Origin: Eledone cirrhosa | Taxonomy: Eukaryota | Direction: 5' to 3' | DNA: 64,000 nt | Assembly: GCA_964016885.1 (NCBI GenBank) | Contig: OZ024743.1 | Coordinates: forward strand, 231,446,001 to 231,510,000 | In this document: piece after piece, positions 30,617-63,566 of the stretch | Position numbering within the stretch: position 1 is the stretch's first letter | Layout: each line of letters begins with the position of its first letter | Position numbers and translations under genes: made by a program | Notes under the pieces: generated by a model | The model's database searches: none | Told to the model about the DNA's origin: nothing | What the model saw: the letters and a program-made list of their open reading frames with translations, nothing else

Positions 30617-31205
<589 letters not shown>

Positions 31206-32749: not shown

Positions 32750-32750
<1 letters not shown>

Positions 32751-33572: not shown

Positions 33573-33603
<31 letters not shown>

Positions 33604-33889: not shown

Positions 33890-33987
<98 letters not shown>

Positions 33988-33990
33988 ATA

Positions 33991-36050
<2,060 letters not shown>

Positions 36051-36054
<4 letters not shown>

Positions 36055-36626
36055 GAATTGGTGCTCTGAAATACCTATATATATATGAATGTCTATATAC
36101 TGTATTTTGCAATACACTGTATGCTTAATTAAAACCATTTCGAAGACCTTATGCTATTGTTTTAGAGTAGTGACAGTCTCACTTACTTTAAATTTTCAGC
36201 AAACAGGGGGAGATAAAGCTGACAGAGCTATGTTTCGTACTGATTGGTACTTATCAAAGCCAAGTACCCCACCTGTTTGCTGAAAATAATGAATGTTTCA
36301 TTCTTATAGAATTTCTAGTAATAATCAGGAACTGATTATACAGAGCGGTTGCCGGTCAAGCAGAAATTGAAAATTAGAATTGGCGCTCTGAAATAAGAAA
36401 TTCTATAAGAATTAAACATTCAGGATTTTCAGCAAACAAGTGGGGTACTTGGCTTTGATAAGTACCAATCAGTACGAAACAAGGCTCTGTCAGCTTTATC
36501 TCCCCCTGTTTGCTGAAAATTTAAAGTAAGTGAGATTGTCACTACTCTAAAACAATAGCATAAGGTCTTCGAAATGGTTTTAATTAAGCATACAGTGTAT
36601 TGCAAAATACACTATATATACATTCA
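36051..36626. mobile_element. Non-coding inverted pair of family J units
   Basis: 36085-36315 inverted relative to 36396-36626; same family as 59636-60480. Confidence 0.8.
36451..36495 (+). ncRNA. Hammerhead ribozyme, U3-A8 core (family J; inverted copy 36217-36261)
   Basis: ggct TTGATAA gtac caatca gtac GAAA caaggctctg TC agct. Confidence 0.8.
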
Positions 36627-36652
36627 TATATATATATATATATATATATATG

Positions 36653-37249
36653 ATATATTTTCTTTAGGTTGTTTTGGAAGCCTCAACAATGCAGATGGGT
36701 AACTCTCCGGTTAACAAGATCCGGTGTTGGAGAGAGAGATGTACGTGAATGTAGATTGAGATGTATAGTGTGTAGAAGAACGTAGGAAAGAGCGTAAAAA
36801 ATTAAAATAACTCGATATAGAGTTACCTTGGGAGAGATTTAATTGTCCCTATATATTTCGGATTCACATCCATCAACTAGGGGTTTTTTTCTGGGGAGGG
36901 TGAACGTTGTCTGTCGGAAAGGTGCGAAACATCTCTTTCTCACCTTTCCGACAGACAACCTTACCCCCCCCCCCCCGGAACGCCGCTCCCCCAGTTGATG
37001 GATGTGAATCCGAAAGATATAGGGACAATTAAATCTCTCCCAAGGTAACTCTATCTCGTGTTATTATTTTTATTTTTTACGGTCTTTCCTACGTTCTTCT
37101 ACACACTATACATTCACTCACATCTCTCTCTCCACCACCGGATCTTGTTAACCGGAGAATTGCCCATCTGCATTGTTGAGGCTTCCAAAACGTCCTAAAG
37201 TAAATATATCTTATTATTCCACAATGCTTCAAGCAAACTTCAATACTCT

Positions 37250-37250
<1 letters not shown>
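36653..37250 (+). mobile_element. Non-coding fold-back PLE-type insertion (family N) with an HHR-like motif and short tail
   Basis: 36653-36925 inverted relative to 36940-37210; tail 37211-37250; HHR-like 36987-37025. Confidence 0.7.
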
Positions 37251-37302
<52 letters not shown>

Positions 37303-37980
37303 GTGAGGTTTTCTTTGCAAAATGAAAAATAACCGAGGGGTCCTTCACGTGTGAAAGTATAAAGAAACAAAGATGAAATCGAAAATACAACTGGAGTTTT
37401 ATTTTAAAAAAAAATATAAATATTTATTTGGTTCCTTTACCGGTTTCGCAGTTCTTCTGCTTTTCAAAATAGATTGAGATGGAGGGACTGTGGTTTTTCT
37501 CACATCTGGTTGGTTTCTGAATGTTATTGTTTTATATGGAAAAATGTGGCTCGAAATGCCAGGTATTTAGAGAAGTAATTTGATTGGTTGATCAATAATT
37601 GTAATAAATTTCGCGCTAGTTCGCGTTACAAAGTTCTTCAAACAGGGGGGGGGGGGCACAGGTTGTTTTTTTAATATATGAGTGTTTGAATTTCTTTTTA
37701 CTTAAAAAAAAGGGGCTCATGAAGGCTTTTTTTAAATAAACGTAATTTGATTGGTTATAAAAGAAATTATGGCTGTCACGTGAACTAGTTTTCATAAAAT
37801 TTTCGCGCCCTTATTTGGAAATCTATTCTGTATTCTTTTTAGAGAATTTTATGACAATCAAAAGATAATGGTCAAGAGAAATGGGATGGGAGAATTGTTC
37901 TGGTTTAGGGAATATGGTTAGTTCGCTGGGGTGTCAGAATTCATATTTTCTATTGAAATAAAGTAAAGATATGTATGTTT

Positions 37981-38056
<76 letters not shown>

Positions 38057-38679
38057 AATTTATTTTTACCTAAAAAAGAGGCTCACGAATGTTTTTTTTT
38101 AGTAAACGTAATTTGATTGGTTATAAATGAAATTATGGCTGTCACGTGAACAAGTTTTCATTAAATGTTTGCGCCATCATTTGGAAATCTATTCTGTAGC
38201 CTTTTTAGAGTATTTTATGACAAGCGAAAGATAATGGTCAAGAGAAATGGGATGGGAGAATTGTTCTGGTTCAGTGAATATGGTTAGTTCGCTGGGGTTT
38301 CAGAATTCAGATTTCTATTGAATTAAAGAAAGTAAAGATGTGTATGTTTATGTGTGTGCTTGTGTGTGTGTATGTGTGTGTGTGTTTATTGGAAGATGAT
38401 TCTATTAGTAGAAATGGGGGAGGGAGTTGTGTGTGTGTGTATGGGTGTTATGTGTGTGTGAGAGTATGTTAAGATGGAGAGAATATATATATTGTGTGTG
38501 TGTGTATATATGTGTGTACGAAAGTGATTCTATTAGTAGAAATGGGGGAGGGAGTTCTGTGTGTGTGGGGTGGGGTTGTTATGTGTGTGTATGGGTGTTA
38601 TGTGTGTGGGAGTATGGATAGCATGTTAAGATGAAGAGAATATATATATAGTGTGTGTGTGTGTAGGAAAATGATTCCT

Positions 38680-41560
38680 TTAGTATGAATATTTTTGAAT
38701 GAACATATTTTCCTTACTTATTCGTATTTGTTCTGTTGTATTATTAGCGCAAAGGTAAAATGGGAAGACTTGGAATTTTGGTGTCTTATTACTTGCGCAT
38801 ATTTCTAGATGTGCGCTTAGTGGTATCTGTCTCGTGGTTGGATCTCGTAATTGTTGGCGATGAACTGTCATTCTGTTTCTGAGTGTGAGTTTAGTTTGCC
38901 CTATATAATCTTCATTGTATCCTTTACATTTAATGGCATAAAGTAGATTTTTAGATGAGCAAGTGAAGTGATTTTTTACAGCAAAATCTTGTCCTGATTT
39001 AAATGTATACGTCTTGCCTTCAATGAGCTGAGTCCAGGTTCCACAATTAGAGCGACCACATTTTTTGACAGTGGGTTGTGGGATTGTGGTAGGTAATTTG
39101 GCATTGGTGAGTAATGTTTTCAATGATTTCGGTTGTCTTTTTCTTTTGATTATTTTGTGTGTTTCAAGGGCTTTTTTCATTCTTGGGTTTTGTTTTAGTA
39201 GTGGGATGTTCTTGTGAATAGTGTTGTAAGCTTCCGCATTTCTTGGGTTGTGTGTTGAGATATATGATAGAATATTGGACGTACCTTGAATTTGTTTCTG
39301 TTTTCGTAATTCCTCAATGCCTATCGCTTTAGCCCTTTCTATTCCATTATATATTAGTAATGGTGGGTACTCTCTTTCGAGTAGAATTTCCTTTAATTCT
39401 TAAAGTCTTTTATTTCGTGTTTCATAATTGGAGACAATTGTGCAAATTCTTCTTTCTAAGTTAAAAGGAATGTTCGTCTTCGTGTACTTTGGGTGGTTGG
39501 AGGTGAATAGCAGATATTGTTTGGAATCTGTTGGTTTGTAGTGTATGTCAGTTTCAAAATTTGTGTCTTTTTTAAGATTAAGATGTCCAGAAATGGGAGT
39601 TGATCTTGGCTGTATTCCATTGTGAATTGGATGTGGTTATTGATGCCGTTTATTAACTTTTTGAAATCCTTGTGTTGGTCGAGTGTGTGGGACCAAATAA
39701 TGAGACAATCATCCAAGTAGCGTTTCCAATTCTCTGATAAATATTTGTGGAAGTTCAATCCGTATTTTGATTTGGACTGTTCATATATCTGGACTTCTAA
39801 GTATGCCATGGCTAAGTTGGCATAAGTTGGAGCGGCTTTTGTACCCATCGCAGTCCCCGATATTTGCTTGTAAGTACTGCCATCGAAATCAAAAAAGTTG
39901 TTCTGTAAGATGAATTTTAATCCCTCGGTGATGAAGCTTTTTTCTATTCTGCCAGGTATTTCATTGGGATATTTCTCTAGCCAGAATCCTATTGCTTCTA
40001 GTCCGTATTGATTGGTGTGGGATCGTTGTGTAGAGATTCACTACATCGAAAGACACAATAATAGTGTCGTTGTTGACATGTTTGGGGGGGTGTTTCAAGA
40101 GGTCCAGATCGTCTCTTACAAGGCTTGGTATGTATTTGAGAATTGGTTTTAGTAGCATGTCTATAAAGTTGCTCAGTCTGTGTGTTTCACATTGTGGGCC
40201 CGCTACAATTGGTCTTAATTTAAGGTCTGTGGGGTACTGTGTGTTCACGCAGGCTGATGTGGATTGTTTACAGGCATCGTTAATTATTTTACACTTGTGG
40301 ATCTTCGGAAGTCCGTAAAGGTTGCTGGTTTTGTATTCAAAATGTGTTAAATAATCGCGTTCCTTTTTAGTTAGGTCTTCCTGGTATCGATAAATCAGTG
40401 TGTTTATCTGGTCATTGTTTTTGATTGCTGGTAGTTTTTTACTCTTTCATAGTAATTAGTATTTTGTAAGCGAGAGAACATAGAATTTTTATATTTTTCA
40501 GCCTCCATAATGACAACAGTACTTCCCTTGTCCGCTTCCTTAATTATAATGTCCGTATTGTTTTTTAGTTCATGGATAATCTCCTATTCCCTTCGACTCG
40601 TGTTGGGTTTGGGTTTAGGTTGCGGTAGTTGATGGTATGGGAAATTAGCTATGTTGTCACAACATTTGTCCAGAACTCTGTTTCTACCTTTTGTTGGGTT
40701 GTAGCTGCTTTTATTCCGTACAATTGATTCGTCGTTATTCACCTTGTCAAATAATTCCTCTGTAAGACGTAATTTTCTACAGAAGAGTGAGATATCGTCA
40801 TTTATCTCATTGGGGTTAGAGTATTGTGCTGTTGGTGTGAATTTCAGTCCTTTGGAGATAATTTTTACTTGTTGGGCTGAGAGGTTTGTATTTGAAAGGT
40901 TGATTATTTTCAGTTTTTCAAAATCGGTTTGTGCCACCGGGTGTCGTGGGTCCTGTAGCCTTGGTCTAAAAAATGATTTTTCTGGAATGTTTTTTCAATG
41001 GTATTATTATATCTAATGGTATTTCCCCTGTTGTTGTGTAGTCATGTATAGAAGTTTCGGACGTATTGAGGTTCGGTTTGTTGATAGTACGGGTTGTAGA
41101 TTTTGTTCCTTTGTATGGGTTGGGATCTACGGTTTTGGAACATGATCATTGGGGTAGAGTTTAGCCACTTTTCATATATGTCTGCCTTGCCATTATTTTT
41201 TAGGAGGTTCCAAAAGGCGAATTTGTGGGCTGCGAGCTTTTGAGTCCATATATTGATTAGGGTGTTTTGCACTGAGTGGACATCTCGTAGATTGGGTTCT
41301 AATGGTTGTTCCAGCTTTTGGAGCATTGCTGTTTCAATGGTTTGGATTAGTTTAGTTAATGCTGGAGTAATATTCGTCTCTTGGGTATTTTCTGTTTCTT
41401 CGTGGGGTCCTTTTTTATAGATGTGTATGTGGCCCACTTTGTTGGTCAAAATTGAGAGTTTAGAGGAAACTTCTTTGAGTTCATTTAAGATGTCCTGGTT
41501 CAGTGAGTTGTTGTTTTGTTGAGACTTTGGTGGCATTTTCGGTCTTCGTTTTGTTGGCAT
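38680..41560 (-). pseudogene. PLE RT plus GIY-YIG ORF, frameshifted
   Basis: KGLKFTP, ADKG, GLPKIHK, LRPIV, SFDVVNLYT, AMGTKAAPTYANL, WKRYLDD, KCGRSNCGT linker, LLY..YIGQT. Confidence 0.92.
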
Positions 41561-41700
41561 GAATTAGAAAGTGAGGTTTTTTTACAAAATAAAAAATAAC
41601 CGAGGTGTCCTACACGAGTGAAAGTATAAAGAAACAAAGATGAAATCGAAAATGCAACTGGAGTCTTATTTTTAAAAAAAGATATATATTTATTTGGTTC

Positions 41701-41736
41701 CTTTACCGGTTTCGCAGTTCTTCTGCTTTTCAAAAG
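41701..41736 (-). ncRNA. Minimal hammerhead, U3-A8 core (family F; second copy 37435-37470)
   Basis: ctt TTGAAAA gcag aagaa ctgc GAAA ccgg TA aag. Confidence 0.78.
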
Positions 41737-42102
41737 TAGTGCCAAGATGGAGGTTCTGTGGTTTTTCTCACATCTTGTTGGTGTCTGAATGTTATTTGTT
41801 TTATATGGAAAAAAGTGGCTCGAAATGCCAGGTTTTTATAGAAGTAATTTGATTGGTTGGTCAATAATTATAATAAATTTCGCGCCAGTTCGCGTTACAA
41901 AGCTTTTCAAACAAGGGCGGGGGCACAGGTTGTTTTTTTCGTATATGAGTGTTTGAATTTCTTTTTACTTAAAAAAAAGAGGGGCTCACGAAGGCTTTTT
42001 TTAAATAAACGTAATTTGATTGGTTATAAATGAAATTATGGCTGTCACGTGAACAAGTTTTCATTAAATTTTCGCGCCCTTATTTGGAAATCTATTCGGT
42101 AG

Positions 42103-42150
<48 letters not shown>

Positions 42151-42152
<2 letters not shown>

Positions 42153-43330
42153 TAAAACATGTCTATAGAATCACAAGATAAAATATATACTATTTCCTCT
42201 CCCAATTAGCATAATTAACTATATAAAACATCGAATAGACCAGGCTATAAGAATAAGGCTTCTATGAAGGAATCTCCGACAAATAACCGAAACTAGCTCT
42301 TCGCGTCGGCCGTAACGGAATATTTATCGAATATTTCGACAGCATAATCGCCTAGATATAGTCAAGTAAACAGAATTAGGTTTAAAACAAACTAGGAGAA
42401 AATAGAATACATTTAAATACCTCTACCATGGTTTCGTCCGTGTTTTGAGTTTTCCAATAATTATGTAATAATTATGTAAACTCGAGCGCCGGATTCTTCA
42501 GGAAGCTCGTTCATATCTAGACACTAAATTTTCCAAAGCGATCGCGCCAAGAATTCATTTCAAAATGGCTAAAAATCGTGACGTAGTCGCGGTGAAGTTT
42601 GGAGGGGTGTGGTAGTTGCTTACGGCTGGTGGCATTTTTGCTAGAAAGCACAGCACAATACAGCCAAATTTGTATCTCAACCTAGTGGGAGATTATTACA
42701 TATAAAAGTTTACATATATATATACATACATATACATATACGTGTTTTGCAACCGGTCACTTTGTGGCTCAATGAAAAATTAATAAATTAAACAATCAGA
42801 GCTATATATCATAAAACATGTCTATAGATGAATGAATTCTTGGCGCGATCGCTTTGGAAAATTTAGTGTCTAGATATGAGCGAGCTTCCTGAAGAATCCG
42901 GCACTCGAGTTTACATAATTATTACATAATTATTGGAAAACTCAAAACACGGACGAAACCATGGTAGAGGTATTTAAATGTATTCTATTTTCTCCTAGTT
43001 TGTTTTAAACCTAATTCTGTTTAGTTGACTATATCTAGGCGATTATGCTGTCGAAATATTCGATAAATATTCTGTTACGGCCGACGCGAAGCGCTAGTTT
43101 CGGTTATTTGTCGGAGATTCCTTCATAGAAGCCTTATTCTTATAGCCTGGTCTATTCGATTTTTTATATAGTTAATTATGCTAATTGGGAGAGGAAATAG
43201 TATATATTTTATCTTGTGATTCTATAGACATGTTTTATGATATATAGCTCTGATTGTTTAATTTATTAATTTTTCATTGAACCACAAAGTGACCGGTTGC
43301 AAAACACGTATATGTATATGTATGTATTTA
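42151..43330. mobile_element. Non-coding inverted/partially tandem HHR element (family K, ~660-bp unit)
   Basis: cataaaacatgtctataga at 42151 and 42810; 42151-42557 inverted relative to 42833-43239. Confidence 0.8.
42885..42970 (+). ncRNA. Hammerhead ribozyme with extended stem II (family K; inverted copy ~42420-42505)
   Basis: cttc CTGAAGA a tccg [insert] cgga c GAAA ccatgg TA gagg. Confidence 0.82.
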
Positions 43331-43340
43331 TATATGTAAA

Positions 43341-43390
<50 letters not shown>

Positions 43391-43391: not shown

Positions 43392-46300
43392 GTCAGGTTG
43401 CTCTCGAGTGCTACTAGTAACATGTAACCCAGTACTACCTGTCACGTGGTCGGGTCGTCGGCGACTAAACCGGCAACCCCACCAAGCTTGCTTGGTGAGG
43501 AGGGTGATATTTGGACACCATGCGGGATGAAATACGAAACCTGGCAAAGAACGGAGGAACCCAGCACAGTCAACGGCCATCCAAATAGTACTTTTTTTTT
43601 TTTCTACCTTTCTAGGAGAGGGAATCTCCTAAAAAAAAACCTGCGGCCTTGGAACCATCCGATGATGTTAACCAGTTCTCCTTTTCGGGTAGTGCTTTCG
43701 ATGCTCAGAGAGTGGGATTGGTCGCGTGCAAGGCCTTTCCCCACTTAAAAAACGTTCAAAGCACTGGCATCGCTTGTTTATGATCTGTTACAGGTTTGTG
43801 TGGCTGGCCGTAACCAAAAAGTGCACCAAACTCTATGATGACAGATGATAACCTTGAAGTCAATGGCAGTAAGGGCTCTGGAACTTATTGTGAAGGGTTC
43901 TGGCCTGGCAGGTGTCCCATGGCACCGCAGCGTGGGCCCGGTCGTCATCCTACAACTGCAAGGAGGTTCAAACCTCTGAATATTGGATGTTGGAATGTAA
44001 GAACTTTACTGGATTCCCAGTCCAGTAAAACTCGCCCTGAAAGAAGATCTGCTTTGGTGTCGAGGGAACTCGATCGCTATAGCATGGACATCGTTGCTCT
44101 CTCAGAAACGAGATTGGCAGGTGAGGGTCAATTCACAGAACAGAAGGGAGGATATATCTTCTACTGGAGTGGTGGAACAGAGGGTTGTAGGGGAGAGGCA
44201 GGGGTCGCCTTTGCAATCAGGAATAGAATCGTCTCAAAGCTGGAAAATCTTCCTTGTGGATTCAATGATCGGATAATGTCCATGAGAGTCCCTCTGATTC
44301 AAAACCGCTTTGTGACTCTAATCAGTGTGTACGCTCCTACTATGTGTGCTAGTGATGATGAAAAACTAAGTTTCTACCTGTCTTTGAGAGAGGTCATCCA
44401 TGCATCTTATGCAGACAAGATTGTCATCCTTGGTCATTTTAATGCACGTGTTGGTTAAGACTGGTAAGCTTGGAGTGTGATGGGCAGGCATGGAGTAGAT
44501 AAGTGCAATAACAATGGCCTACTTCTGTTGAAGATGTGCACTGAGATAGATCTTGTTAGGAACACACTCTTTCAGTAGAAAGACAAATATATGTCAACTT
44601 TGATGCATCCAGGTTCCAAGATTGACTTCGTTTTAACGAGAAAACGTGATATCAGGGATATCACATTGGTTCGTCTATTGCGAGGGTCGGAATGTTGGAC
44701 TTATCATCGTCTGGTGCGCGCCAAGTTTCAATTTGTTGTGAAGCCCAAAGTAAGAGGGAAGACGGTTGCACTTCTAAAACAACTAAACGTGGCTCGTCTG
44801 AAAACAGAGAAAGTGAAAGCTGAGCTGTCGAGGTCTCTTGAGTCCATGGAATGTGAAAACCGTCTATGATGTTAGTGCTGGAGTTTTTGGTCATACCAAT
44901 AGAAAGCATAAAGACTGGTTGGATGAAAATGATCCACTGATCCAGACCTTGCTTGAAGAGAAACAAAAATTACTGACATCATTTTTGTGCGAGACACGTT
45001 CTTGCAGGAATGACCGGATCTTCAGGCAGATTAAGGCACGTGTGCAACATCGATTGAGAGCCATGCAGGATACCTGGTGGAGCCAAAAGACTGATGAAAT
45101 CCAGAAAGCCTCAGATTGACATGATAAAAAGCACCTATACAATCTGCTCAGAGAGGTGTATGGTCCGACCGGTTCACAAATATCACCACTTCGCTCCGGG
45201 GACTGCAAGGGATTGCCCAGAGATCCGAAGGAAATTCTGATCATGTGTCATGACCACTTTGATGAGCTTCTCAACAAACCATCAGAAATTGGTGATAAGT
45301 TCATCCGGTCGATTCCATCCAGACCTACAAAGCTGGCAACGGCTGATCCTCCTTCATTTGATGAGGTGGCGAAGGCCATTGCCAAATTAAATAGCGGTAA
45401 GTCACCTGGAATGGATGGACTGAGTGACGAGATTTTCAAGTGTGCTGTTGATAACTTCCGCCTCACTGATCTCTTTGTGAATGTTTGGACTGAAGGAGAT
45501 GTACCACAGGATTGGAAAGATGCACTGATGGTGGTACTTTACAAAGGAAAGGGAGCCAACGATGACTGTGGCAACTACAGAGGTATTTCACTGCTATCTG
45601 TGGCTGGGATGATCTTGTGCAGGATATTGTTGGACAGATTGATAGAGCACATTGATGTTGAGGTACATTCTGAGTCCCAATGTGGCTTTAGGAATGGCAG
45701 ATCACTGTTGACATGATCTTCTCGGCCAAATAACTTCAAGAGAAATGCATTGAACAGTGCATGGACTTATACCAAGTTTTTGTCGATCTGACTAAGGCAT
45801 TTGACACCGTTAATAGGAAGGCTTTGTGCGTTATTTTAGAGAGATTGGGCTATCCTGAAAACTTTGTGAACATTCTGAAACTCTTCCACGATGACATGCA
45901 GGCATGGGTGATTGTTGGAGGTAAACTGTCTGAGCCAATCTCAGTTGAAAATGGTGTCAAGCAGGGTGATATACCTGCACCGACTTTGTTTGCCTTGTAT
46001 TTCGCGATGGTGTTCTTCATGGCCTTCAAGGATTGTCAACATGGTATCTATCTCAGATATCGTACTTCCGGCAAGATGTTTAACCTTAGGCGTCTCACTG
46101 CCAACACTAAGGTACTGAGTACCTTGATCAGAGAATTTTTATATGCAGATGATTGTGAACTCTTTGCACACTCCCAGAGTGACATGCAACACCTTATGGA
46201 TTATTTTTCCAATGCGTGCAGTACTCTGGGACTGACAATCAGTCTGAAGAAGACTGTCGTCATGTAACAACCTGCTCAGGATAAAGTTTTCAATGAACCA

Positions 46301-47264
46301 TCCATACACGTATACGGTCAAAAGCTGAAGGCTGCTGACACATTTGTTGCTCTCTGGATGCAGAAGTTGGTTTACGTGTTAGTAAGGCAAGTGAGTCATT
46401 TGGAAGGCTCAACGACCGTCTTTGGTGCAGGCGAGAAATACAATGAGGACCAATGTGAGAGTGTATGCTGCATGTGTACTGTCAGCTTTGCTGTATGCAT
46501 GTCAGACATGGGTTGCCTACAAACGACATATCCACAGACTGGAACGGTTTCACCAGCAGTGTCTCAGAAAGATTATTGGTATCAAGTGGCAGATGCATGT
46601 GAGTGATGTTGAGGTCCTTGGGAGAAGTGAGTGTCGGGGCATTGAGAGTATCATCCACCAACGACGTTTGCGATGGACCGGACACCTCTGCAGAATAGAA
46701 GATGATAGAATCCCAAAACAACTCTTGTATGGCGAGTTTTGTGAGGGTAAGGGACAACCTCACAAACCAAAGCTCCGATTCAAGGATTGTGTAAAGGACT
46801 CATCGAATAAAACTGGTTTGAAGATGGCTGACTGGGAGATAGAAGCTCTTGAAAGAGAAACTTGGCGTGGAATGGTGGATGATAGGGTCCATAATTTTGA
46901 GGACAGACGCATAGATCACGAGAAGATCAAAAGGGATGTGCGTAAGCAATGCCCTGGTGTATCATTCGAAACGATCGGTCTCTCCATTGAATTTAAGTGC
47001 CCTGAGTGTGGAAAAATTTGCTTGAGCAAATCAGGTCTCAGGAGCCACAGTCCCAGCCATGTTCAAAGAGAACAAGTGAACTATGATCTCCACGGTGTTG
47101 TGAGGGTTCACGGGCTACCTGATGCGGGACCTCAAGCCAGGGAGATCCATAGTTATCGTCAGTGTGTATAGGTGTGCAAGTCTCTAGCAGGCTTGAAAAG
47201 CCATATCTGAGCGTCCTACATCTGAATCTGACAAGCGATTGCAATACTAATGGCAGAGTTTGCA

Positions 47265-48095: not shown

Positions 48096-48152
48096 TTTTG
48101 TCTGATGAGGGCGCACTAAACTTTTGGTACCCTTGAAATATATATAATAGAT
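48096..48152 (+). ncRNA. Hammerhead ribozyme (family C-related fragment 48050-48195)
   Basis: ttttgt CTGATGA gggcgc actaaacttttg gtaccc tt GAAA tatata TA atagat. Confidence 0.75.
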
Positions 48153-51223: not shown

Positions 51224-51739
51224 AAAGAATAGAGGTGTAGCACACAAGTTATTATATATTGGTAAACGGAATAGAAAATGCTGACAAATTGTTCACAGTT
51301 GAAAAATGGTTTAATTAGGAATAAAAGAGTATTAGTGATTGTATGGGTTAGTATTCAGTTGTGGTTTTAAGTTTTTAAGTTTTTACCGGTTGCGCATTTC
51401 TAAATGCTTTTCAAAAATAATTTTGAGATAGAGTGTCCGTGCTGTTTGCTCTGATCTGATTAGTTTTGGGAATTCTACCTGTTTTTATGTTTAAAAAATG
51501 GCTCCAGCGTTATTTTTGTGTTGCAAAAATGCTTGTGGTCAAAACAATTTTGATTGGTCGGTAGAGGTCATGTGAATGTAAAAAGTTGATTTTGCGCCAA
51601 GACTGTTTTTATGTTAAAATGTTAGAAAAGTGGCTCCAGCAAAAATTATTGGTCAAAACAATTTTGATTGGTCGGTAGAGGTCATGTGGATAAAAAATTG
51701 GTTTTGCGCCAAGATTGAGAAATGACTCTTTCACAACAA

Positions 51740-51809
<70 letters not shown>

Positions 51810-52041
51810 TAGTAGTAGTAAGGTGTTCGATGCTGCGACAATAGCCAGCAGCGATGTGTGTCAAATGGCTATTAAGATAAGTGTGTGTGTGTGTGTGTGT
51901 GTGCGTACATACACACAGCAGAGTCATTCGAAGGTCAAAAGATATTTTTCAGCATTTGTCTTATACGGAGAAGTGCGTGTGTGTGTGTGTGTGTATAAGT
52001 CTCTTTGTATGTTGATGTACGCGTGTGTATGTGTTTGTGTA

Positions 52042-52876
52042 CCCTAGACACGTTAAAATTAATATTCCCTACAACTTAGCCAAGAGAATCTGTACTATAG
52101 TCTCCAATAAAAACATCTGCTACTTACGGCTACAAGAACTAAAGGACACACTCATAGGCAGGGACTACCCTGCATCACTAATTGACAATGGAATCCAACG
52201 TGCCCTAAAACTCAGTACCCAGGAACTTAGACACCCTAAAGTAAATCAACCAAAACTAAAAGTTATTCCATACATCTCCACACACAACCCCCTCAACAAT
52301 GAGGCCTTTGACACCATCCTCCAGAACATCCCTGTATTGAAAAAGGACCATAGAATGAACCAAATTCTACGAACACACGATATCATAAAGAGCAAAAGAC
52401 AATCCAAGTCAATGAAAAACATCTTAACACATGCCAAAGTACTGCCAACCGCAACAACGAAACCCACAGTAAAAAAATGCGATTGACCCAACTGTGGCAT
52501 TTGCATCAACCTAATAGAGGGTTCGGAATTCTATTTCAAAGATGGACAACGTTTTATAGTAAAACACAATTTCACATGTGCATCGGAAAATTTAATATAT
52601 GTATTAACTTGTTCAGGTTGTCGAGAACAATACATAGGCCAGACCAAAAACAGCCTCCGCCAACGCATGACTGTCCATAGATCCCAAATTAAAATACGGG
52701 AATACAGGAAAATACCACTGAGTGAACACATTGATACCTGTGCCGCCCAAAATCATCCCAACTTCAGAATCTTTCCCCTCTACAAATTTAAAGATAATGC
52801 CACCCACACCCAGCGCATCAGCAAGGAATCTTACTTCATTAACAAATACGGACCCCGTCTAAACACTTCTCCCTAA
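52042..52876 (+). pseudogene. Neptune-type PLE thumb/GIY-YIG fragment, one in-frame TGA
   Basis: PRHVKINIPYNLAKRICTIVS, KKCD*PNCGIC, LIYVLTCSGCREQYIGQT; close to 38680-39480. Confidence 0.88.
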
Positions 52877-53274
52877 GACGAACCCACAACATACACACGT
52901 CAACATACATACCTACATCAGCACACATCTCTACCCACATATAAACACAATGACACACGTAAACACACATGCTCTATGGTGCAATACAAAAAAATATATG
53001 TGCATATATATGTATGTATATATGTATATATATATATATATGTAGTGAAAATATATATGTGTGTGTGTGTGTGTATATATATATAGTGAATATCATTTCA
53101 CACCTTTTATTGTTAAGATTGTTGATGTTCTATTAAGAGAACCGATTTTACTGAAAAAATCGAATAATGTACACCATTTTACCAGGGGGAAAAAAATACT
53201 GGTCCACCCACACACACACACACATATATATACACAAACACATACACACGCGTACATCAACATACAAAGAGAAT

Positions 53275-53309
<35 letters not shown>

Positions 53310-53470
53310 TTCTCCGTATAAGACAAAAGCTGAAAAATATCTTTTGACCTTCGAATGACTCTGCTGTGTGTGTGTACGCACACACACACACACACACACT
53401 TATCTTAATAGCCATTTGACACACATCGCTGCTGGCTATTGTCGCAGCATCGAACACCTTACTACTACTA

Positions 53471-53508
<38 letters not shown>

Positions 53509-53830
53509 TTGTTGTGAAAGAGTCATTTCTCAATCTTGGCGCAAAACCAATTTTTTATCCACATGACCTCTACCGACCAATCAAAATTGTTTTGACCAAT
53601 AATTTTTGCTGGAGCCATTTTTCTAACATTTTAACATAAAAACAGTCTTGGCGCAAAATCAACTGTTTACATTCACATGACCTCTACCGACCAATCAAAA
53701 TTGTTTTGACCACAAGCATTTTTGCAACACAAAAATAACGCTGGAGCCATTTTTTTAACATAAAAACAGGTAGAATTCCCAAAACTAATCAGATCAGAGC
53801 AAACAGCACGGACACTCTATCTCAAAATTA

Positions 53831-53867
53831 TTTTTGAAAAGCATTTAGAAATGCGCAACCGGTAAAA
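53831..53867 (+). ncRNA. Hammerhead-like motif with U3-A8 core and GCAA instead of GAAA (inverted copy ~51381-51417)
   Basis: ttt TTGAAAA gcattt ag aaatgc GCAA ccgg TA aaa. Confidence 0.6.
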
Positions 53868-54012
53868 ACTTAAAAACTTAAAACCACAACTGAATACTAA
53901 CCCATACAATCACTAATACTCTTTTATTCCTAATTAAACCATTTTTCAACTGTGAACAATTTGTCAGCATTTTCTATTCCGTTTACCAATATATATATAT
54001 ATATACATATAT

Positions 54013-54277
54013 AGGAAAAAGTATAACCCCGACGGCAGAGCTTAAGCCGTTTCGACGGCTATTTCTGTACTAAATTAGAATTTTTAGCCTGGTGAATAAA
54101 TAGCGGGCTATTTATTCACCAGACTAAAAATTCTAATTTAGTCCAGAAATAGCCGTCGAAACGTCTTGAGCTCTGCCGTCGGGGTCATACTTTTTCCTAT
54201 TTCCCACTCTACTACCCTAAGTATTGAGTACTCTGGTGCGTTATGGTCCATTTGGTTCCTTACCACAATTTCTTTGT
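54013..54277 (+). mobile_element. Family D short fold-back PLE insertion plus tail
   Basis: ~90-bp arms 54013-54104 / 54107-54198; tail matches 49551-49620. Confidence 0.75.
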
Positions 54278-56130: not shown

Positions 56131-56578
56131 ACAAAGAAGTCGTTACCGGTAATAAATTTCATTCATAAAATGTATTTGTCTCTGTAACCCTAATAATCGT
56201 GTATTTAGAATGTATCCATCCTTCTTATTTTCATTTCATTTCATTCTGTCATTTGAATTCAGTAAAGTGAACAAAAAATATAACACAGAGCCAGATCCAA
56301 AATATCATTATAAATAAAAAGATGCGCAAGTATGCAACCTTGAAATATTCGATTGAACTATAATCCGGCATACATCGTTATCTCATCAACTCAAATACCA
56401 ACCTAATCGACATGATATAATTGGATGTAAATGGTATTTCTTAGAACAATTTTAGAATACGAATGCGCTGGGGAATCATATTTCTTAAGTAATTTGATCG
56501 AAATATTTGAAGTTTGATTGGTACTGAGAAATTCAAGGAGCGATTATAGCAACCGTGTGTATTTTTATTATTTACGGA

Positions 56579-56697
56579 TTGAGTTCAAATCCCGCCGAGG
56601 TTAACTTTGCCTTTCATCCTTACGGGGTCGATAAAATAAAGTACTAGTAATACACTGGGATAATTGCTGGCCTTGTGCCAAAAGTAGAAATAATTAT
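56579..56697 (+). mobile_element. tRNA-derived SINE with a Meta-like core
   Basis: gagttcaaatcc B box; gcctttcatccttacggggtcgataaaataaagtac core; same family as 26436-26551. Confidence 0.8.
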
Positions 56698-57850
56698 TTG
56701 TAACACTTGTAGGGCCATCAATATAACAAATTTTGTCTTTGAAACATCTTCTTGAAGAACATCATTATGGTGCTTAGACCAGTCAGCAATAAATTGTTCT
56801 TTAGTAAGAGAGAGGAGGACAACAATGGAATGAAATGGTGTAAGGATAAAGGAGAATGGTTATAAGTAAAGATAGAAGGAAAGAGTAAGAAACAAGGATA
56901 AAATAATGAATAAAAGGTATATTAATGCTATTGACGGCGAAAGAAGGTAAATATAAATATTGCTATGTTATATAAAAACTAAGATGCATCACATACTGTT
57001 CCGAATGGGTACATAGTTAATTCAGGAACAATAAAATAACAGTAGTGATGTAGTTAAAAAAAAAGAGTCTCTAGATTTTTGAGAACATCCTAACAGAAGA
57101 AAATAAATCAATGCGGTAGAGAAATAATAGAATCTGTTAGACACACAGTGACTAATAACAGAATGCTTTAAGTTTGCGTGTCTCACATATATGCGTAGCT
57201 TGTGAATAAAACAATTCAAGGGGTGTCGCTGGCCGTGGTGATCGCCAAACATGTTTTGTAATGTATCGTCTTATTGGCTAATCAACCAACGAGAGTAATT
57301 GTTGCTCAAAAGCATCCTCCATTTTCTTTGCACGTTTATTTATCGTTTCGCTTTCGAATCTTCCTCTTGTATTTCGTCGTTTAACATCAAAATATTTCTC
57401 TCGTTTTGGTAAGTTACATTCTTAATTTATATATGATTTTTAAAAATGTATATTAACTATTTTTTTTCAGTTCGTTATAACATGCTTATAATATTGGTTG
57501 TATCATATTTACTTGTATATTTGTCCATATTATTGTTCGTTTTATGTTAGATTATTTTATTATTAGTGTTAGATTATTTTTTTATTATTATGTTAGACTA
57601 TGTGTATGTAATAATTAATTTTTATTAATTCAACTATAACAATTATTATGTAAAATATATTTATTTAATATTGATTGTTTTTTGTATTTGTTTATATTAA
57701 AAGTCTGAAAATATTTTTATACATCTTACAATAATATTTATAAGATCGTTTATAAAATAACAATTATATAATCTAATTACATTACAACGATAATTTATTA
57801 ATAATATATATCATGTTTAACTAGAGTTATTACAGGCGTTGACTTAAACA

Positions 57851-58141
57851 AATATTAAACTAGACCTGAAAAGTGCGCAAGCTCAAAAGTGTCACAGAAT
57901 GTTATAATAAACTTTCAAAAGTGTGGAACTAGAGTTGTTGCTCAAAAATATTGTAATCATTATCTATCGTACATTCTGTGGCATCCTTTATAAAAATATC
58001 ACAATAAATACATCTGGAGTGTACGATAGATAATGATTACAATAATTTTCAGCAACAACTCTAGTCCCACACTTTTGAAGGTTTATTATAACATTCTGTG
58101 GGTCTTTTGAGCTTGCGCATTTTTCAGGTCTAGTTAATATT
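57851..58141. repeat. Fold-back inverted repeat (~125-bp arms, ~38-bp spacer), MITE-like
   Basis: aactagacctgaaaa..tatcgtaca vs tgtacgata..ttttcaggtctagtt. Confidence 0.7.
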
Positions 58142-58829
58142 GACCCGAGGTAAATGTAGAAATCTAGATTTTTAATGTCTATATTTGCAGTTAAATATCG
58201 AAGCTTTGCAAAAAAGTAATTACTAATGTTTTCCACATCAGCGTGAAGTAACAAGTGAAAACTTGATATAACACTAACACAAATGTCGGTAAATTTATAG
58301 AGCCTTGCTTTTGGTGAGAAAACATTATTTTCCTCGTGTGTTTTTTGGGGTTTTTTTTCGTGTGCTATCATCCAATCTGACATTCAAGATTCTCCTAATT
58401 GACATTTTACCAGGAAAACAGGAGTCGGGTGGGTGAGCCACTCATCGCCCCGACCTCCTCACAGTTTTCTGTATGTTTGTTCTTTTGTTTTCGTGTGTTA
58501 TCAAAGAATATGACCACCAAACTAGTTAGAAACGACTACCTTTATAGAAAAGGGAGGTGAGGAAACGGGCAGAAAGACCATCGAAGTTTCGCAGATCTAT
58601 ACATCCATCCTTGCATTTAGTGGGAAATAATTATTTTTCTTCGGCGATGTCGTGTTGTCAACAAATCTGACCTCCAAGATTCTCAGAATCGATGTTTCTC
58701 CTGGATTAGGGTATATATCAACGTACATTTGTTTATATTTACGAAGGCCTAAACATATAATTCAGGTAGGTCTTTTATGTTCTAATTTCCTGAAACAAAG
58801 TGTTATATTATAGAGAATACCACAGAGGA

Positions 58830-59400
58830 ATCTGCTCTGATTAACATCCTCATGTCCATTGAATTCCTCACTAAACCTTATTTTGTTGTCCGCCACTATT
58901 TGCATGGCTTCAACTGCTCTCACAATCCAGCCACCGATCTATACCTAGATTCCTTATGGGTCACCAGATACCAAATCGGGATAACCTGAAGAAGGCTTTC
59001 TCTAGATGAAAGAACACATAGCAACCTACACTTAGCGAGAAACTTTTCTTGTAAATGTCTCACTAAGAAGAGGGAATGTGTGATGCTCTTTAATGACATA
59101 AAATCAAATTGCATCTCATCGCATTTGAAACTTCACGCACAAATTACGCTGAAACTATTTGTGTCAATTTCATAAATTGGTCCATAGGTTTTATGCCTCT
59201 GTAGACGAGGCTTTCTAGAGCAGCACATTTACCATCATAACAAATAAGACATTGCATATGGTACGATCATGTATAATGTAATTTACAATGCGGGTGACTA
59301 TATGAATTTGAACTTCACATGATGACTACAAGATCCCAGCATCTGACAGTCCAACTGCTTTTCAATTTTTCTATTTCTTGATAGATTCTAAAATATTATG
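58830..59400 (-). pseudogene. Old RTE-like RT fragment
   Basis: MQFDFM..SITHSLFLVRHLQEK resembles QFGFM..ST.DAIF..RQLQEK. Confidence 0.55.
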
Positions 59401-59559
59401 ACTGTCAACGTCCATTTAAGGTCCGTCGAATCGTTGTACACGTTATCAACTTTTCGAAATAGTGTTTCCAAGTGTCTTTCTTCTGCGCATCATTGAGTGT
59501 AAGTACGCAGGTGCCATCCTGCACACACGTTTACCTAACCAAAGCCTGTTTCATATTTA

Positions 59560-59635
<76 letters not shown>

Positions 59636-59640
<5 letters not shown>

Positions 59641-60480
59641 ATGTATATATAGTGTATTTTGCAATACACTGTATGCTTAATTAAAAGCATTTCGAAGACC
59701 TTACGCTATTGTTTTAGAGTAGTGACAGTCTCACTTACTTTAATTTTCAGAAAACAGGGGAGATAAAGCTGACAGAGCTCTGTTTCGCACTTGTTGGTGC
59801 TTATCAAAGCTAACTACTCCTCCTGTTTGCTGAAAATCATGAGTGTTTGAATATTATAGAATTCTAGTAATAATCAGGAACTGATTATACAGAGCGGTTG
59901 CCGGTCAAGCAGAAATTGAACATTAGAATTGGTGCTCTGAAATAGCGATATATATATATATGAATGTATATATAGTGCTCTGTCAGCTTTATCTCCCCTG
60001 TTTGCTGAAAATTAAAGTAAGTGAGACTGTCACTACTCTAAAACAATAGCGTAAGGTCTTCGAAATGCTTTTAATTAAGCATACAGTGTATTGCAAAATA
60101 CACTATAAATACATTCATATATATATATCGCTATTTCAGAGCACCAATTCTAATTATCAATTTCTGCTTGACCGGCAATCGCTCTGTATTATCAGTTCCT
60201 TATTATTACTAGAATTCTACAAGAATCAAACACTCATGATTTTCCGCAAACAGGAGGAGTAGTTAGCCTTGATAAGCACCAAAAGGTGCGACACAGAGCT
60301 ATGTCAGCTTTATCTCCCCTGTTTGCTGAAGATTAAAGTGAGACTGTCACTATTCTAAAACAATAGCGTAAGGTCTTCGAAATGCTTTTAATTACGCATA
60401 CAGTGTATTGCAAAATACACTATATATACATTCATATATATATCACTATTTCAGAGCACCAATTCTAATTTTCAATTTCT
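59636..60480. mobile_element. Family J: one minus unit followed by tandem plus units of ~320 bp
   Basis: gct.tgtcagctttatctcccctg at ~59978 and ~60298; HHRs at 59767-59811(-) and 60265-60309(+, GACA). Confidence 0.82.
59767..59811 (-). ncRNA. Hammerhead ribozyme, U3-A8 core, fully palindromic stem III
   Basis: agct TTGATAA gcac caacaa gtgc GAAA cagagctctg TC agct. Confidence 0.87.
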
Positions 60481-60812
60481 GTGAGATGGCGATAATAGCC
60501 ACTAAATTATAGGAAGTCCCCATCTGAGATCTGACGGAAAACAATAAAACATGTGGAATAGGGTTAGACACAACTATGACAGAATTTGTAGTAGCATATA
60601 AGAAGGAATCGGGATAATGTTCAACCACTCTCAAACGTGAGTCGACATGTTTAAATATATCTGAGGTGCTTCTGATTCCAGAGTCACGTTCGATCATTAA
60701 TATATCGTTCCTCGAGCGGATCGACAGTGAAACATATTTAATATGGAATTATATATGTATAAGATGCAACACCGATTCTTTGTTCCTTGTATATATATTT
60801 ATATATACGTTA

Positions 60813-60846
<34 letters not shown>

Positions 60847-60871
60847 GATAATAATAATAATTATTATTATA

Positions 60872-61521
60872 TAGCTCCAACCGAATACCTAACCAGGCAT
60901 GACAGAGCTGCACAATACATACATTGGATAATGTGTAAGCATTTTGCCCTGCCCCATCAAAAGAATTGGTGGGAGCATCAACCACCTCCCATACTTGAAA
61001 AAGATCACATCTCAATCTTGTGGAACTTTAGCATCAAAACAGACCGAAAGATAGACGCAAATAGACCTGATATAATACTGAAGGACTTTAAAAAGAGGGT
61101 ATGCCTGCTAATTGATATGTCAGTTCCAATAGATAAGAATGTATCTATAAAAACATTTGAAAAATTGAGCAAGTATAAGGTTCTGGAGAGAGAAATTGGA
61201 AAAATGTGGAAATTGAGAACTAAAACAATACCAGTGGTTGTAGGCGCTCTAGGAATGATACCTAAGGGGTCTAATGATTACTTATCGCAAATCCTAGGAA
61301 ACCCGCGGATAGGAGAAATACAAAAGATAGTACTAATGGGAACTGCCCATATACTAAGGAAGATTCTGTCAATATAAGTACATCACAAGTCTAAATACCT
61401 AAAGATGCATGTGTGAGATTGTATATTCTTTCTTGAACATGGCGGACCTTGTTGTCTCTTGAGGTCACTGGTTGTGACTTGGTGATAACTTGTATGAACA
61501 TAAAGCAAGATAAATGCAGCT

Positions 61522-61556
<35 letters not shown>
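60872..61556 (+). mobile_element. 3' fragment of an R4/Dong-like non-LTR element (REL endonuclease) ending in (TAA)n
   Basis: YLTRHD..IHW..ILWNFSIKTD..ANRPDII..LIDMSVP..EKLSKY; ORF to 61377; TAA repeat 61523-61557. Confidence 0.85.
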
Positions 61557-61557
<1 letters not shown>

Positions 61558-63236
61558 GAGTTAACATCGAGTGGAGAATCCTTTGAAGGCGTGAAGACCA
61601 AGTGAGGTATCTTCCATGGAGATAAATTGTCCCCTCTGTTGTTTGTCCTTGCCCTGCGAAAATTGAGAGCAGGATACAAGTTAGGAAAAAGAGAGCTCAC
61701 AATCAACCACCTCCCCTTCATGGACGATCTTAAATTCTTTGGTAAGAGTGAGAAGGAGTTGGATGTACTTGTTGACACTGCCCGTATTTTCAGCAATGAA
61801 ATACAGTATGTATGCAATTTGGTATTAATAAGTGTGGTGTCCTAGTGATGAAGTGGGGTAAATTGAGCAGAAGCAACGGAATCCAGGTACCAACAGGTGA
61901 GATGATAAAGGAAATTGACACGGAAGAAGTATACAAATATTTAGGTGTTCTGGAGGCAGATGACATCAAGAACAAAAAAAAATAAAGGAATTGATAAGAT
62001 CTGAGTACATTAGAAGAATAAGGAGTGTATTAAAATAACATCTAAATAGTAGGAATGCCATAAGCGCAGTGAATCCCCGAGATGTCTCTATTATTAGGTA
62101 CAGTGCGGGAATTCTGAAATGGGATGTTGCTGAACAAAAAGAAATGGATACGAAGACTAGGAAGCTATTGACTATCTACAACATGTTCCACAAGAGGAGT
62201 GATGTGGATAGACTCTACTTAAAGAGATCTGAAGGTGGAAGAGGTCTTATCAGCATAGAGGACTGTATTCAGATGGAGAAAAACAACCTGCACAAATACG
62301 TGACTGACAGTAGGGAGCCAATGCTCAGAAATGTACTGAAGTAGAGGACAATAGATCAGGGGATGTGCAGGGAGGAAATAATAGCAAGGAGGAAGAACAA
62401 CCTTAATGAAAAATCCTTTCATAGTACCTTCTTTGAGAAAATTGAATTTAGAGATCCACAGACATGGAACTGGTTAAAAAGATGAGATCTTAAAAAGGCT
62501 ACAGAAGGAATGCTAATGGCTGCGCAAGAGCAGGCCCACAGAACGAAGTGGGTGAAACATCATATATACAAGGAGGAGGCTAGCCCACTGTGTAGGATCT
62601 GTGGAGAGAGGAGTCTGTGGCTCACATTGTATCCGAGTGTAAACACCTAGCCCAGACTCACTATAAAGGCTAGAGACATGATGTGATGGGCAGGGTGATC
62701 CACTGGCACCTATGGAAAGTAAACAATTTACCGCATTCTGAGAAGTGATATGAACATAAGCCTGAGTCGGTGATAGAAAACGATCAGGTGAAGGTGCTAT
62801 AGGATTTTAGGATACAGACGGACAAGAAACTGGAACACAATAAGCCTGACCTGGTGGTTTTGGACAAAGAAAAAAGAACGTACCTAATTATGAATGTAGC
62901 CTACCCATTTGACACGAGAGTGCAAGAAAAGGAGAGGGAGTAAATTAACCGATACCAGGACTTAAAGTGGGAGGTAAAAGGGATTTGGAACTGCCATGAA
63001 GTCAGAGTCGTCCCGATTGTCAATGGCGCACTAGGTACAATCTCAAAGAGTTTCCAAGGATGGTTAAAGAAAATTAGTCCAGCTCCGCTTTTTAGAACAC
63101 TTCAAAAGGCATGCTTGCTGGGAACAGCAAGAACCCTCCGATACGTCCTGAATATCTGAGGCTGCAGGTAGCAGCATGATATTAATTTCAACAAACTTTC
63201 CCGTAAATTAACATCTATGACTGAGACTCAAAGAAC

Positions 63237-63296
<60 letters not shown>
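61558..63296 (+). mobile_element. 5'-truncated R4/Dong-like element (RT plus REL), disrupted
   Basis: GIFHGDKLSPLLF, HLPFMDDLK, RLYLKRSEGGRGL, CRICGE, RHD, NKPD; ends in (TAA)n. Confidence 0.87.
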
Positions 63297-63298
<2 letters not shown>

Positions 63299-63566
63299 AG
63301 TCAAAGTGATCCCGATTGTCATAGGCGCACTGGGGACTATCTCCAAAGGTTTCCAGGGATGGTTAAAGAAAATCGGCCCCTTCACGCTTTTTGGAACGCT
63401 TCAAAAGGCATGCTTGCTTGGAACGGCAAGAACCCTCCGATACGTCCTGAATATCTGAGGCTGCAGGTAGTGGCTTGATATTCAATCCAACGGACTTTCC
63501 AGTTAACCAACATCAATGACTGAGATTCAAGGAATAACAATAACAATAATAATAATAATAATAATA
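63297..63566 (+). mobile_element. Second tandem 3' fragment of the same R4/Dong-like family
   Basis: Similar to 62997-63240; ends in (TAA)n. Confidence 0.85.

What the first reader, a model, noticed from the sequence alone, without database searches (positions are those of the whole stretch)
59636..60480. Family J: ~320-nt tandem monomers with one HHR each, a candidate non-LTR retrozyme (circular RNA)
Seen: non-coding, head-to-tail period of ~320 bp, one U3-A8 HHR per unit, and a diverged second locus at 36051-36626 in which the unit also wraps around (attagaattggtgctctgaaata joins end to start). Established: metazoan non-LTR retrozymes are short HHR-bearing tandem repeats that produce circRNAs and are thought to use PLE machinery. 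Inference: permuted junctions fit reverse transcription of a circular or multimeric template.
Basis: partly seen in the sequence, partly recalled or inferred. Interest (0 to 1): 0.7.

Follow-up and report, generated by a model that had tools for sequence, protein, structure and literature searches.

The report
Ribozyme mini-retroelement copied by Penelope machinery
A roughly 320-base non-coding element carrying a self-cleaving ribozyme sits at two places in an animal genome as back-to-back inverted copies with the insertion marks of Penelope-like retrotransposons, so it fits the known retrozyme type, although a circular RNA form is not shown.

Summary
The unit (321-323 nt), its U3-A8 type I hammerhead (HHR) and the wrap-around at both loci are real. 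Each locus is a head-to-head inverted pair of arms (1.09 + 1.6 units; 1.08 + 0.74 units), not a head-to-tail array. No arm has two complete HHRs, and one of the four HHRs carries A14C. So neither locus can release a monomer by itself.

Both loci show the Penelope-like element (PLE) insertion footprint: an inverted 5' junction, a ~29-38 nt tail on one arm only, and 3 of 4 ends in (TA)n. ORF-bearing PLEs in the window show the same footprint. In those PLEs the repeat end runs into the ORF; in J the tail loops back to the HHR in 3 of 3 arms that cross it.

Best reading: an ORF-less, PLE-mobilised element of the non-LTR retrozyme type. A circular template is only hinted at: 4 of 8 over-unit arms are one unit plus 25-34 nt (post hoc P 0.003-0.11). 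The predicted fold is inactive as a monomer and active as a dimer for one copy. Circles, cleavage and genome-wide ORF linkage are untested.

The parts
59563..59651 (.). (TA)n array into which the 3' end of the locus-A left arm runs (likely target; merges with the unit's own short internal TA run)
   Evidence: TRF, 44.5 copies; arm end at phase 144
59627..59977 (-). Locus A left arm: one 323-nt unit plus a 27-nt terminal redundancy (phase 117/118 to 144; phase 1 = first base after HHR cleavage). No tail.
59744..59838 (-). Intact U3-A8 type I HHR (core 59807 to C17 at 59771). 4-bp helix II with 6-nt loop, palindromic 12-nt helix III, 4-bp helix I continued across an internal loop into a ~19-bp helix.
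59977..59978 (.). Head-to-head (5'-5') inversion junction of locus A. The right arm starts 7-8 nt upstream of an HHR cleavage position (C17 at 59984).
59977..60481 (+). Locus A right arm: ~1.6 units (321-nt period). Only the 3' half of the first HHR, then a full HHR.
60265..60309 (+). Damaged U3-A8 HHR: A14C, helix I and helix III mismatches
60444..60481 (+). ~38-nt 'tail' present on this arm's 3' end only. This end does not abut (TA)n, and no TSD was found.
36048..36396 (-). Locus B left arm: one 322-nt unit plus a 24-25 nt redundancy (phase 148 to 173). Carries a ~29-36 nt tail, then (TA)n.
36217..36261 (-). U3-A8 HHR, core intact, one mismatch in the helix III palindrome; helix II has U-A in place of C-G
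36397..36637 (+). Locus B right arm: 0.74 unit (phase 229 to 144), ends in (TA)n
36451..36495 (+). U3-A8 HHR, core intact, helix III palindrome with changes

Best explanation
Family J is a ~320-nt ORF-less unit with a type I U3-A8 hammerhead, copied into the genome in trans by a PLE RT/GIY-YIG protein. It is a non-autonomous PLE derivative of the non-LTR retrozyme type. SHOWN: unit, HHR anatomy, arm layout, tail, (TA)n ends. INFERRED: (1) A source locus elsewhere is transcribed into multimers. (2) Two neighbouring HHRs pair through the 12-nt palindrome (double hammerhead) and cut. The monomer then refolds into an inactive form and may be ligated into a circle. (3) The PLE protein nicks AT-rich/(TA)n DNA on both strands and starts cDNA internally at two nearby sites, phase ~144 and ~173-182; the stretch between them is the tail. 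(4) The two cDNAs run past the HHR into the preceding unit and are joined 5'-to-5' with 0-3 nt of overlap. The two loci here are dead-end products. I put about 0.4 on a circular template for at least some arms; otherwise the template is a linear multimer.
For: PLE footprint: inverted arms and a one-sided tail at both J loci. PMC8557442 describes an inverted 5'-truncated copy, a 30-40 bp tail at one end and (TA)n targets as PLE features. PMC11167929 shows both strands nicked and extended, with two internal RT start sites bounding the tail. In 10 inverted loci tabulated, the two arms end at different points, and 19 of 20 ends abut (TA)n; this set includes ORF-bearing loci 51253-53995 and 12891-17904. 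PLE RT/GIY-YIG remnants lie in the window. In two ORF-bearing PLEs the upstream repeat end runs into the ORF's ATG, whereas J's tail returns to the pre-HHR segment in 3 of 3 arms. HHR geometry is canonical-size. 94.3% of 122 cells pair, against 40-53% for slid controls; there is one two-sided change in helix II. Divergence between loci is concentrated in the HHR 5' half (18/95 vs 5/144 sites, Fisher P 0.0002) while pairing is kept. For the A-left unit, P(active fold) is 0.002 as monomer or circle, and the dimer MFE is the double hammerhead, P 0.22. Circular-monomer MFE z is -3.4 to -5.6 against 100 shuffles.
Against: No parent PLE for J was found in the window: blastn and nhmmer give only TA-rich hits. 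No locus has two complete HHRs, so the 'active retrozyme' criterion of bioRxiv 10.64898/2026.07.22.740005 is unmet. Covariation does not beat the shuffle control (187-453 of 500 shuffles reach it; only 4 sequences). The B-left dimer does not favour the double hammerhead (P 3.5e-5). One J end lacks (TA)n, and no TSD was seen (longest shared word 5 nt). Tail lengths across loci span 21-169 nt, wider than 30-40. In the anole PLE, HHR cleavage is dispensable in vitro and no RNA-seq reads end at the cut site, so circles are not required.
Confidence: 0.75

Rival explanations
1. J is the (locally duplicated) pLTR of an autonomous PLE, and both loci are ordinary 5'-truncated inverted insertions that never reached the ORF.
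For: The insertion anatomy is the same as that of ORF-bearing PLEs in the window. U3-A8 cores and opposite-strand HHR pairs 100-700 bp apart are reported for truncated Cercyon PLEs of Schistosoma (PMC4209133). The ORF-bearing PLE at 37295-42101 has a 366-nt, 1.9-copy duplication in its 3' region.
Against: Three arms from two diverged loci cross the tail and re-enter the unit at the same junction with no ORF. That 366-nt duplication stops ~390 nt short of the 3' end. The J HHR has a 4-bp helix II, no extra base after A9 and a full helix III, unlike the minimal PLE type described.
Confidence: 0.15
2. Same element, but the template is only a linear multimer. No circle is involved, and the wrap-around reflects read-through of tandem units. 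This rivals the circle step, not the PLE mobilisation.
For: Arms of 1.55-2.0 units exist. Two arms start at or near the HHR cut site and carry a damaged internal HHR: J-A right, -7/-8 nt with A14C; 32750-33227, 0/-3 nt with a deleted core (P 0.036 for >=2 of 6 arms, post hoc). The J-A right pre-HHR part differs more from the left arm (12/139 vs 3/144, P 0.016), as if from another template. At locus B the left arm's 5' end (phase 148) is 4 nt from the right arm's start (144), as twin priming on one multimer would give. Three of the four short overshoots also fit a fixed roadblock upstream of the no-tail start site.
Against: The overshoot is 27 nt and 25 nt in the two J left arms although their start sites differ by 29 nt. 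The -7/-8 nt start includes bases that a ribozyme-cut 5' end would lack.
Confidence: 0.5
3. A DNA-level satellite or hairpin rearrangement, or an assembly chimera, with a chance HHR-like motif.
For: Inverted repeats next to (TA)n arrays are hard to assemble. Rfam scores are below gathering.
Against: Arms differ by 2-7% within a locus, so they are not read duplicates. Two loci share the layout. The descriptor excess over shuffles is large. Helix pairing is kept across diverged copies.
Confidence: 0.04

Closest known systems
Metazoan non-LTR retrozymes (Cervera & de la Pena 2020, PMC7229834; Li et al. bioRxiv 10.64898/2026.07.22.740005)
   Same: 150-450 bp non-coding unit, GC <50% (34-35% here), one type I HHR per unit with a palindromic helix III, no LTR/PBS/PPT seen, co-occurs with PLEs. 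Li et al. link them to PLE pLTRs by homology and phylogeny.
   Different: Here it is inverted pairs of 0.7-1.6 units, not arrays; U3-A8 core; PLE tail and (TA)n ends. The words 'inverted', 'tail', 'microsatellite' and 'octopus' do not occur in the 2020 main text. Expression, cleavage and circles are unshown.
EN+ PLE insertions and pLTRs (Penelope/Poseidon, Neptune, Naiad; PMC8557442, PMC3846280, PMC11167929)
   Same: Inverted 5'-truncated copy, partial tandem, one-sided 30-40 bp tail, AT/(TA)n targets, HHR in the repeat.
   Different: No RT/GIY-YIG ORF. The tail leads back into the unit instead of into an ORF. The HHR is canonical-size, not minimal.
U3-A8 minimal HHRs of Schistosoma mansoni Cercyon PLEs (PMC4209133)
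   Same: Same core covariation (about 1,300 hits there); opposite-strand HHR pairs 100-700 bp apart.
   Different: That paper's minimal HHRs have a 7-8 bp helix II, an extra base after A9 and no helix III. J has a 4-bp helix II, a 6-nt loop and a 12-nt palindromic helix III.
Non-autonomous Chlamys PLEs such as MRC1 of Chlamydomonas (PMC8557442)
   Same: ORF-less units forming pLTRs and head-to-tail multicopy insertions via PLE machinery.
   Different: Green alga; most Chlamys lack canonical HHRs; those elements share 3' ends with an identified autonomous family, whereas J's partner is unknown.

Membership tests
non-LTR retrozyme | Short (150-450 bp) non-coding unit, GC below 50% | tested here: met
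   321-323 nt, GC 0.34-0.35; longest ATG ORF 65 aa
non-LTR retrozyme | Type I HHR in each unit | tested here: met
   Four copies with all three helices, U3-A8 variant; one has A14C
non-LTR retrozyme | [quoted passage not shown] 'active' criterion) | tested here: not met
   Longest arm is 1.6 units with one full HHR. Not met at these two loci; other loci could not be searched.
non-LTR retrozyme | Self-cleavage and accumulation of linear and circular monomer RNA | not testable with these tools
   Folding predictions only
non-LTR retrozyme | Large TSDs when present | tested here: inconclusive
   None at locus A; masked by (TA)n at locus B
non-LTR retrozyme | Coexists with autonomous PLEs | tested here: met
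   RT and GIY-YIG remnants in the window; all are broken or partial except possibly 13699-16196, not assessed for activity
PLE-type insertion | Inverted 5'-truncated copy at the 5' junction | tested here: met
   2 of 2 J loci
PLE-type insertion | 30-40 bp tail at one end only | tested here: met
   38 nt at A; 29-36 nt at B, the range arising because the short end lies in (TA)n
PLE-type insertion | (TA)n / AT-rich target | tested here: met
   3 of 4 J ends
autonomous PLE | RT + GIY-YIG ORF continuing from the pLTR | tested here: not met
   No ORF in J, and no Pfam match above cut-off in the locus-A flanks 58300-59561 and 60482-60783; tail loops back
autonomous PLE | J attached to an ORF elsewhere in the genome | not testable with these tools
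   No animal genome collection is offered; the prokaryotic scan was empty and uninformative
PLE minimal HHR | Long helix II, extra base after A9, helix III absent or tiny | tested here: not met
   against the descriptions

The most novel reading that the evidence does not exclude
The 'one unit plus 25-34 nt' arms are a genomic footprint of PLE reverse transcriptase making one lap around a circular RNA and stalling after a short strand displacement. They occur in four loci of three unrelated ORF-less families in this window. Sister arms that begin at the ribozyme cut and read through a dead HHR would come from linear RNA. This would be direct sequence evidence for the circular template proposed for retrozymes and PLEs, testable by counting junctions genome-wide.
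Probability: 0.3. Interest if true: 0.72.

Novelty: new member of a known kind. Interest (0 to 1): 0.42.

Why it matters
PLE mobilisation of non-LTR retrozymes has rested, in the papers I read, on shared HHRs, co-occurrence and pLTR homology. Here an ORF-less HHR unit carries the PLE insertion footprint itself (inversion, tail, (TA)n), next to ORF-bearing PLEs with the same footprint. The arm-length pattern gives a countable test of circle versus linear multimer as the RT template, which is an open point in PLE biology. The host is probably an octopod; my one search pairing 'octopus' with 'hammerhead ribozyme' listed no paper on cephalopod retrozymes. Each ingredient alone is already known.

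Tried and rejected
1. Whole-window Rfam scan: swamped by (TA)n miRNA matches; no HHR in the 150 of 211 rows shown.
2. A second HHR-like string in the unit (phase ~22-100): inspected by eye and rejected. It has no closing helix II, and its core-like word is the 3' strand of the long helix I (pairing).
3. Pol III A/B boxes: none by a simple regex, on either strand of two units.
4. A parent PLE in the window: blastn and nhmmer gave only TA-rich hits outside J; the part of the tblastx output that printed (cut at 3000 characters) showed J-to-J matches plus one TA-run match.
5. TSD at locus A: none.
6. Coding remnants in J and the locus-A flanks: 18 frames, 4 Pfam rows, all E>=0.099 and below cut-off.
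7. Degenerate HHR pattern in prokaryotic genome contigs: 0 matches, uninformative.
8. Covariation as proof of structure: not significant with 4 sequences.
9. Twin priming on one RNA: fits locus B (4 nt) but not J-A, 32750-33581, 42144-43349 or 34128-36004 (from coordinates).
10. Literature on the activity of U3-A8 cores: searches found only PMC4209133, which reports the variant; the parts I read show no assay of it. PMC5785218 is not held. That U3-A8 keeps activity and A14C lowers it is from my own recall.
11. Four further inverted loci (26250-29528, 57851-58141, 30743-31047, 54011-54200) were looked at and left out of the tail count. Two show one arm ending in (TA)n with the other continuing; two show no clear pattern.

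Full report
CONTEXT. The window is AT-rich animal DNA full of (TA)n arrays (194 runs of 5 or more repeats, 7.5% of bases) and retroelement remnants. Pfam finds GIY-YIG at 31365-31943, 38683-39399 and 52487-52873, and RT at several places. These GIY-YIG proteins have a cysteine-rich linker upstream, which PMC8557442 gives for the Neptune and Nematis clades. A search with the ORF at 14364-16193 returned 36 proteins, and the four with an organism name are Argonauta hians, Octopus bimaculoides (two) and O. sinensis, at 36-46% identity. An octopod host is therefore likely but only indirectly shown.

OBSERVATION. I number the unit from the base after HHR cleavage (phase 1). Locus A has a minus-strand arm 59977-59627 (phase 117 to 144, 1.09 units) and a plus-strand arm 59977-60481 (from 7-8 nt before the cut site to phase 182, about 1.6 units). 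Locus B has a minus arm 36396-36048 (phase 148 to 173, 1.08 units) and a plus arm 36397-36637 (phase 229 to 144, 0.74 unit). Periods are 321-323 nt. The arms meet 5'-to-5' and their 3' ends point outward. TRF reports no ~320 array. J has no ORF over 65 aa and no other copy in the window.

RIBOZYME. All four copies have a U3-A8 core, a 4-bp helix II opened by G-C with a 6-nt loop, a 12-nt palindromic helix III, C17 and a 4-bp helix I that continues past an internal loop into a ~19-bp helix. A descriptor finds 6 sites in the window, 3 of them J, against 0.27 per shuffle (30 shuffles). Rfam HH9 matches weakly, below its gathering score. Pairing is 94.3% of 122 cells, against 40-53% when slid, with one compensatory change in helix II; with four sequences this does not beat the shuffle control. 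The two loci differ far more in the HHR 5' half (18/95) than in the 144 nt after the cut (5/144; P 0.0002). I read this as structure kept in the ribozyme and sequence kept at the 3' end where a protein would bind (inference). The HHR at 60265-60309 has A14C and two helix mismatches; I expect it to be weak or dead (recalled knowledge). No strand at either locus has two complete HHRs, so these loci cannot release a monomer in cis. For the intact A-left unit, the active fold has probability 0.002 as a linear or circular monomer, while the dimer's minimum-energy fold is the double hammerhead (P 0.22). The B-left unit, with a mismatch in the palindrome, does not show this. These models omit tertiary contacts and Mg2+.

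INSERTION FOOTPRINT. At both loci one arm ends at phase ~144 in (TA)n and the other extends 38 nt (A) or 29-36 nt (B) further. PMC8557442 (passages read) lists an inverted 5'-truncated copy, a 30-40 bp one-sided tail and (TA)n bias as PLE traits. PMC11167929 (abstract, main text and start of methods read) shows a PLE protein nicking and extending both strands of AT-rich DNA, with two internal RT start sites bounding the tail. In 10 inverted loci that I tabulated, the arm ends differ in every case (21-169 nt in nine, 38 nt by phase at J-A), and 19 of 20 ends abut (TA)n, the exception being the J-A tail end. The ten include two ORF-bearing loci. Four more inverted loci were left out; two fit partly and two do not. 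PMC3846280 (passages) offers self-priming on an antisense template as another route to head-to-head junctions, which I cannot exclude.

PLTR OR INDEPENDENT UNIT. In two ORF-bearing PLEs in the window (37295-42101 and 12891-17904), the upstream repeat end runs within tens of bases into an ATG and ORF. In J, all three arms that cross the tail re-enter the pre-HHR segment at the same junction. The unit is therefore closed on itself and ORF-less. That argues against 'just a pLTR', although descent from a pLTR is likely: Li et al. (bioRxiv 10.64898/2026.07.22.740005, parts 1-3 of 5 read; supplements closed) report this for Xenopus retrozymes. Against my reading, one ORF-bearing PLE here has a 366-nt duplication in its 3' region, and U3-A8 cores and opposite-strand HHR pairs are known from truncated Schistosoma PLEs (PMC4209133, parts 1-2 of 4 read and 2 supplementary files searched).

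CIRCLE OR MULTIMER. Five ORF-less wrap-around loci have ten arms; eight exceed one unit, and two shorter ones were left out. Four of the eight overshoot by 25, 26, 27 and 34 nt. The chance of four of eight within 9 nt is 0.0025 (uniform), 0.012 (fitted exponential) or 0.11 (short exponential) (post hoc). In J the overshoot stays at 25-27 nt while the start site moves 29 nt, which a one-lap circle explains and a fixed transcription start does not. That comparison rests on locus B alone, which twin priming on a linear multimer also fits. Two other arms start at or near the cut site and contain a damaged HHR, which suits linear, partly cleaved RNA. In the anole PLE, cleavage is dispensable in vitro. 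The question is open; I give circles about 0.4.

COMPARISON AND VERDICT. J works like a PLE-mobilised non-autonomous element. It meets the size, composition, HHR and co-occurrence features of non-LTR retrozymes (PMC7229834, parts 2-4 of 6 read and main text searched; supplement unreadable; review PMC7761336, passages). It fails the two-intact-HHR criterion at these loci, and circRNA is untested, so membership is probable at family level, not shown. Unseen supplements of these papers could hold cephalopod or inverted examples. Searches pairing octopus with hammerhead terms listed no cephalopod retrozyme paper; the library lacks most subscription journals. Verdict: real, a new member of a known kind, interest 0.42. 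The overshoot pattern is the part worth following.

Noticed in passing
window 32750-33581: A second ORF-less HHR family with the same layout. Period 315-323, C3-G8 HHR at 33431-33462. The right arm is one unit + 34 nt; the left arm starts at the HHR cut site, has a deleted HHR core and carries a ~45-nt tail.
   Followed up: partly
window 42144-43349: ORF-less inverted wrap-around family, period 659. The left arm is one unit + 26 nt, the tail is ~105 nt, and no HHR was found by my descriptors.
   Followed up: partly
window 34128-36004: Inverted family with period 523-529 (1.55 and ~2 units). It has an HHR-core-like string near 35220 and 34782 that does not close a clean three-helix fold, and its tail shares a 16-nt word with the tail of the 42144 family.
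   Followed up: partly
window 37295-42101 (-): Near full-length PLE with RT and GIY-YIG split over several frames, direct pLTRs of ~545 nt, a 366-nt duplication in the 3' region and a (TA)n 3' end.
   Followed up: partly
window 12891-17904: PLE-like element with an inverted arm, 414-nt direct repeats and ORFs at 13699-14088 and 14364-16196 with an Asn-rich linker. No Pfam hit, but many RT-like homologs; relatives at 27306-28611 and 4482-4787.
   Followed up: partly
window 8504-8558, 30524-30578, 30947-30995, 48102-48146 (+): Further C3-G8 type I HHR candidates with long helix II regions and short AT-rich or palindromic helix III, closer to the PLE type.
   Followed up: no
window 33861-37296: A chain of three different inverted elements (34128-36004, J locus B, 36652-37210) separated only by (TA)n runs, which looks like a repeated-insertion hot spot.
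   Followed up: no
window 26436-26551: A ~117-nt insertion flanked by a 17-nt direct repeat inside the inverted element 26250-29528, with a related copy at 56578-56699; possibly a SINE.
   Followed up: no
window 43814-47171 (+); 60763-61377, 62674-63455 (+): Non-LTR retrotransposon remnants: AP-endonuclease plus RT at 43814-46267; C-terminal fragments at 60763-63455 that match each other.
   Followed up: no
window 59627-60443 and 36076-36636: Each J locus is a long inverted repeat, so any read-through transcript would fold into a ~240-350 bp hairpin, a possible substrate for RNA editing or small-RNA pathways (inference).
   Followed up: no
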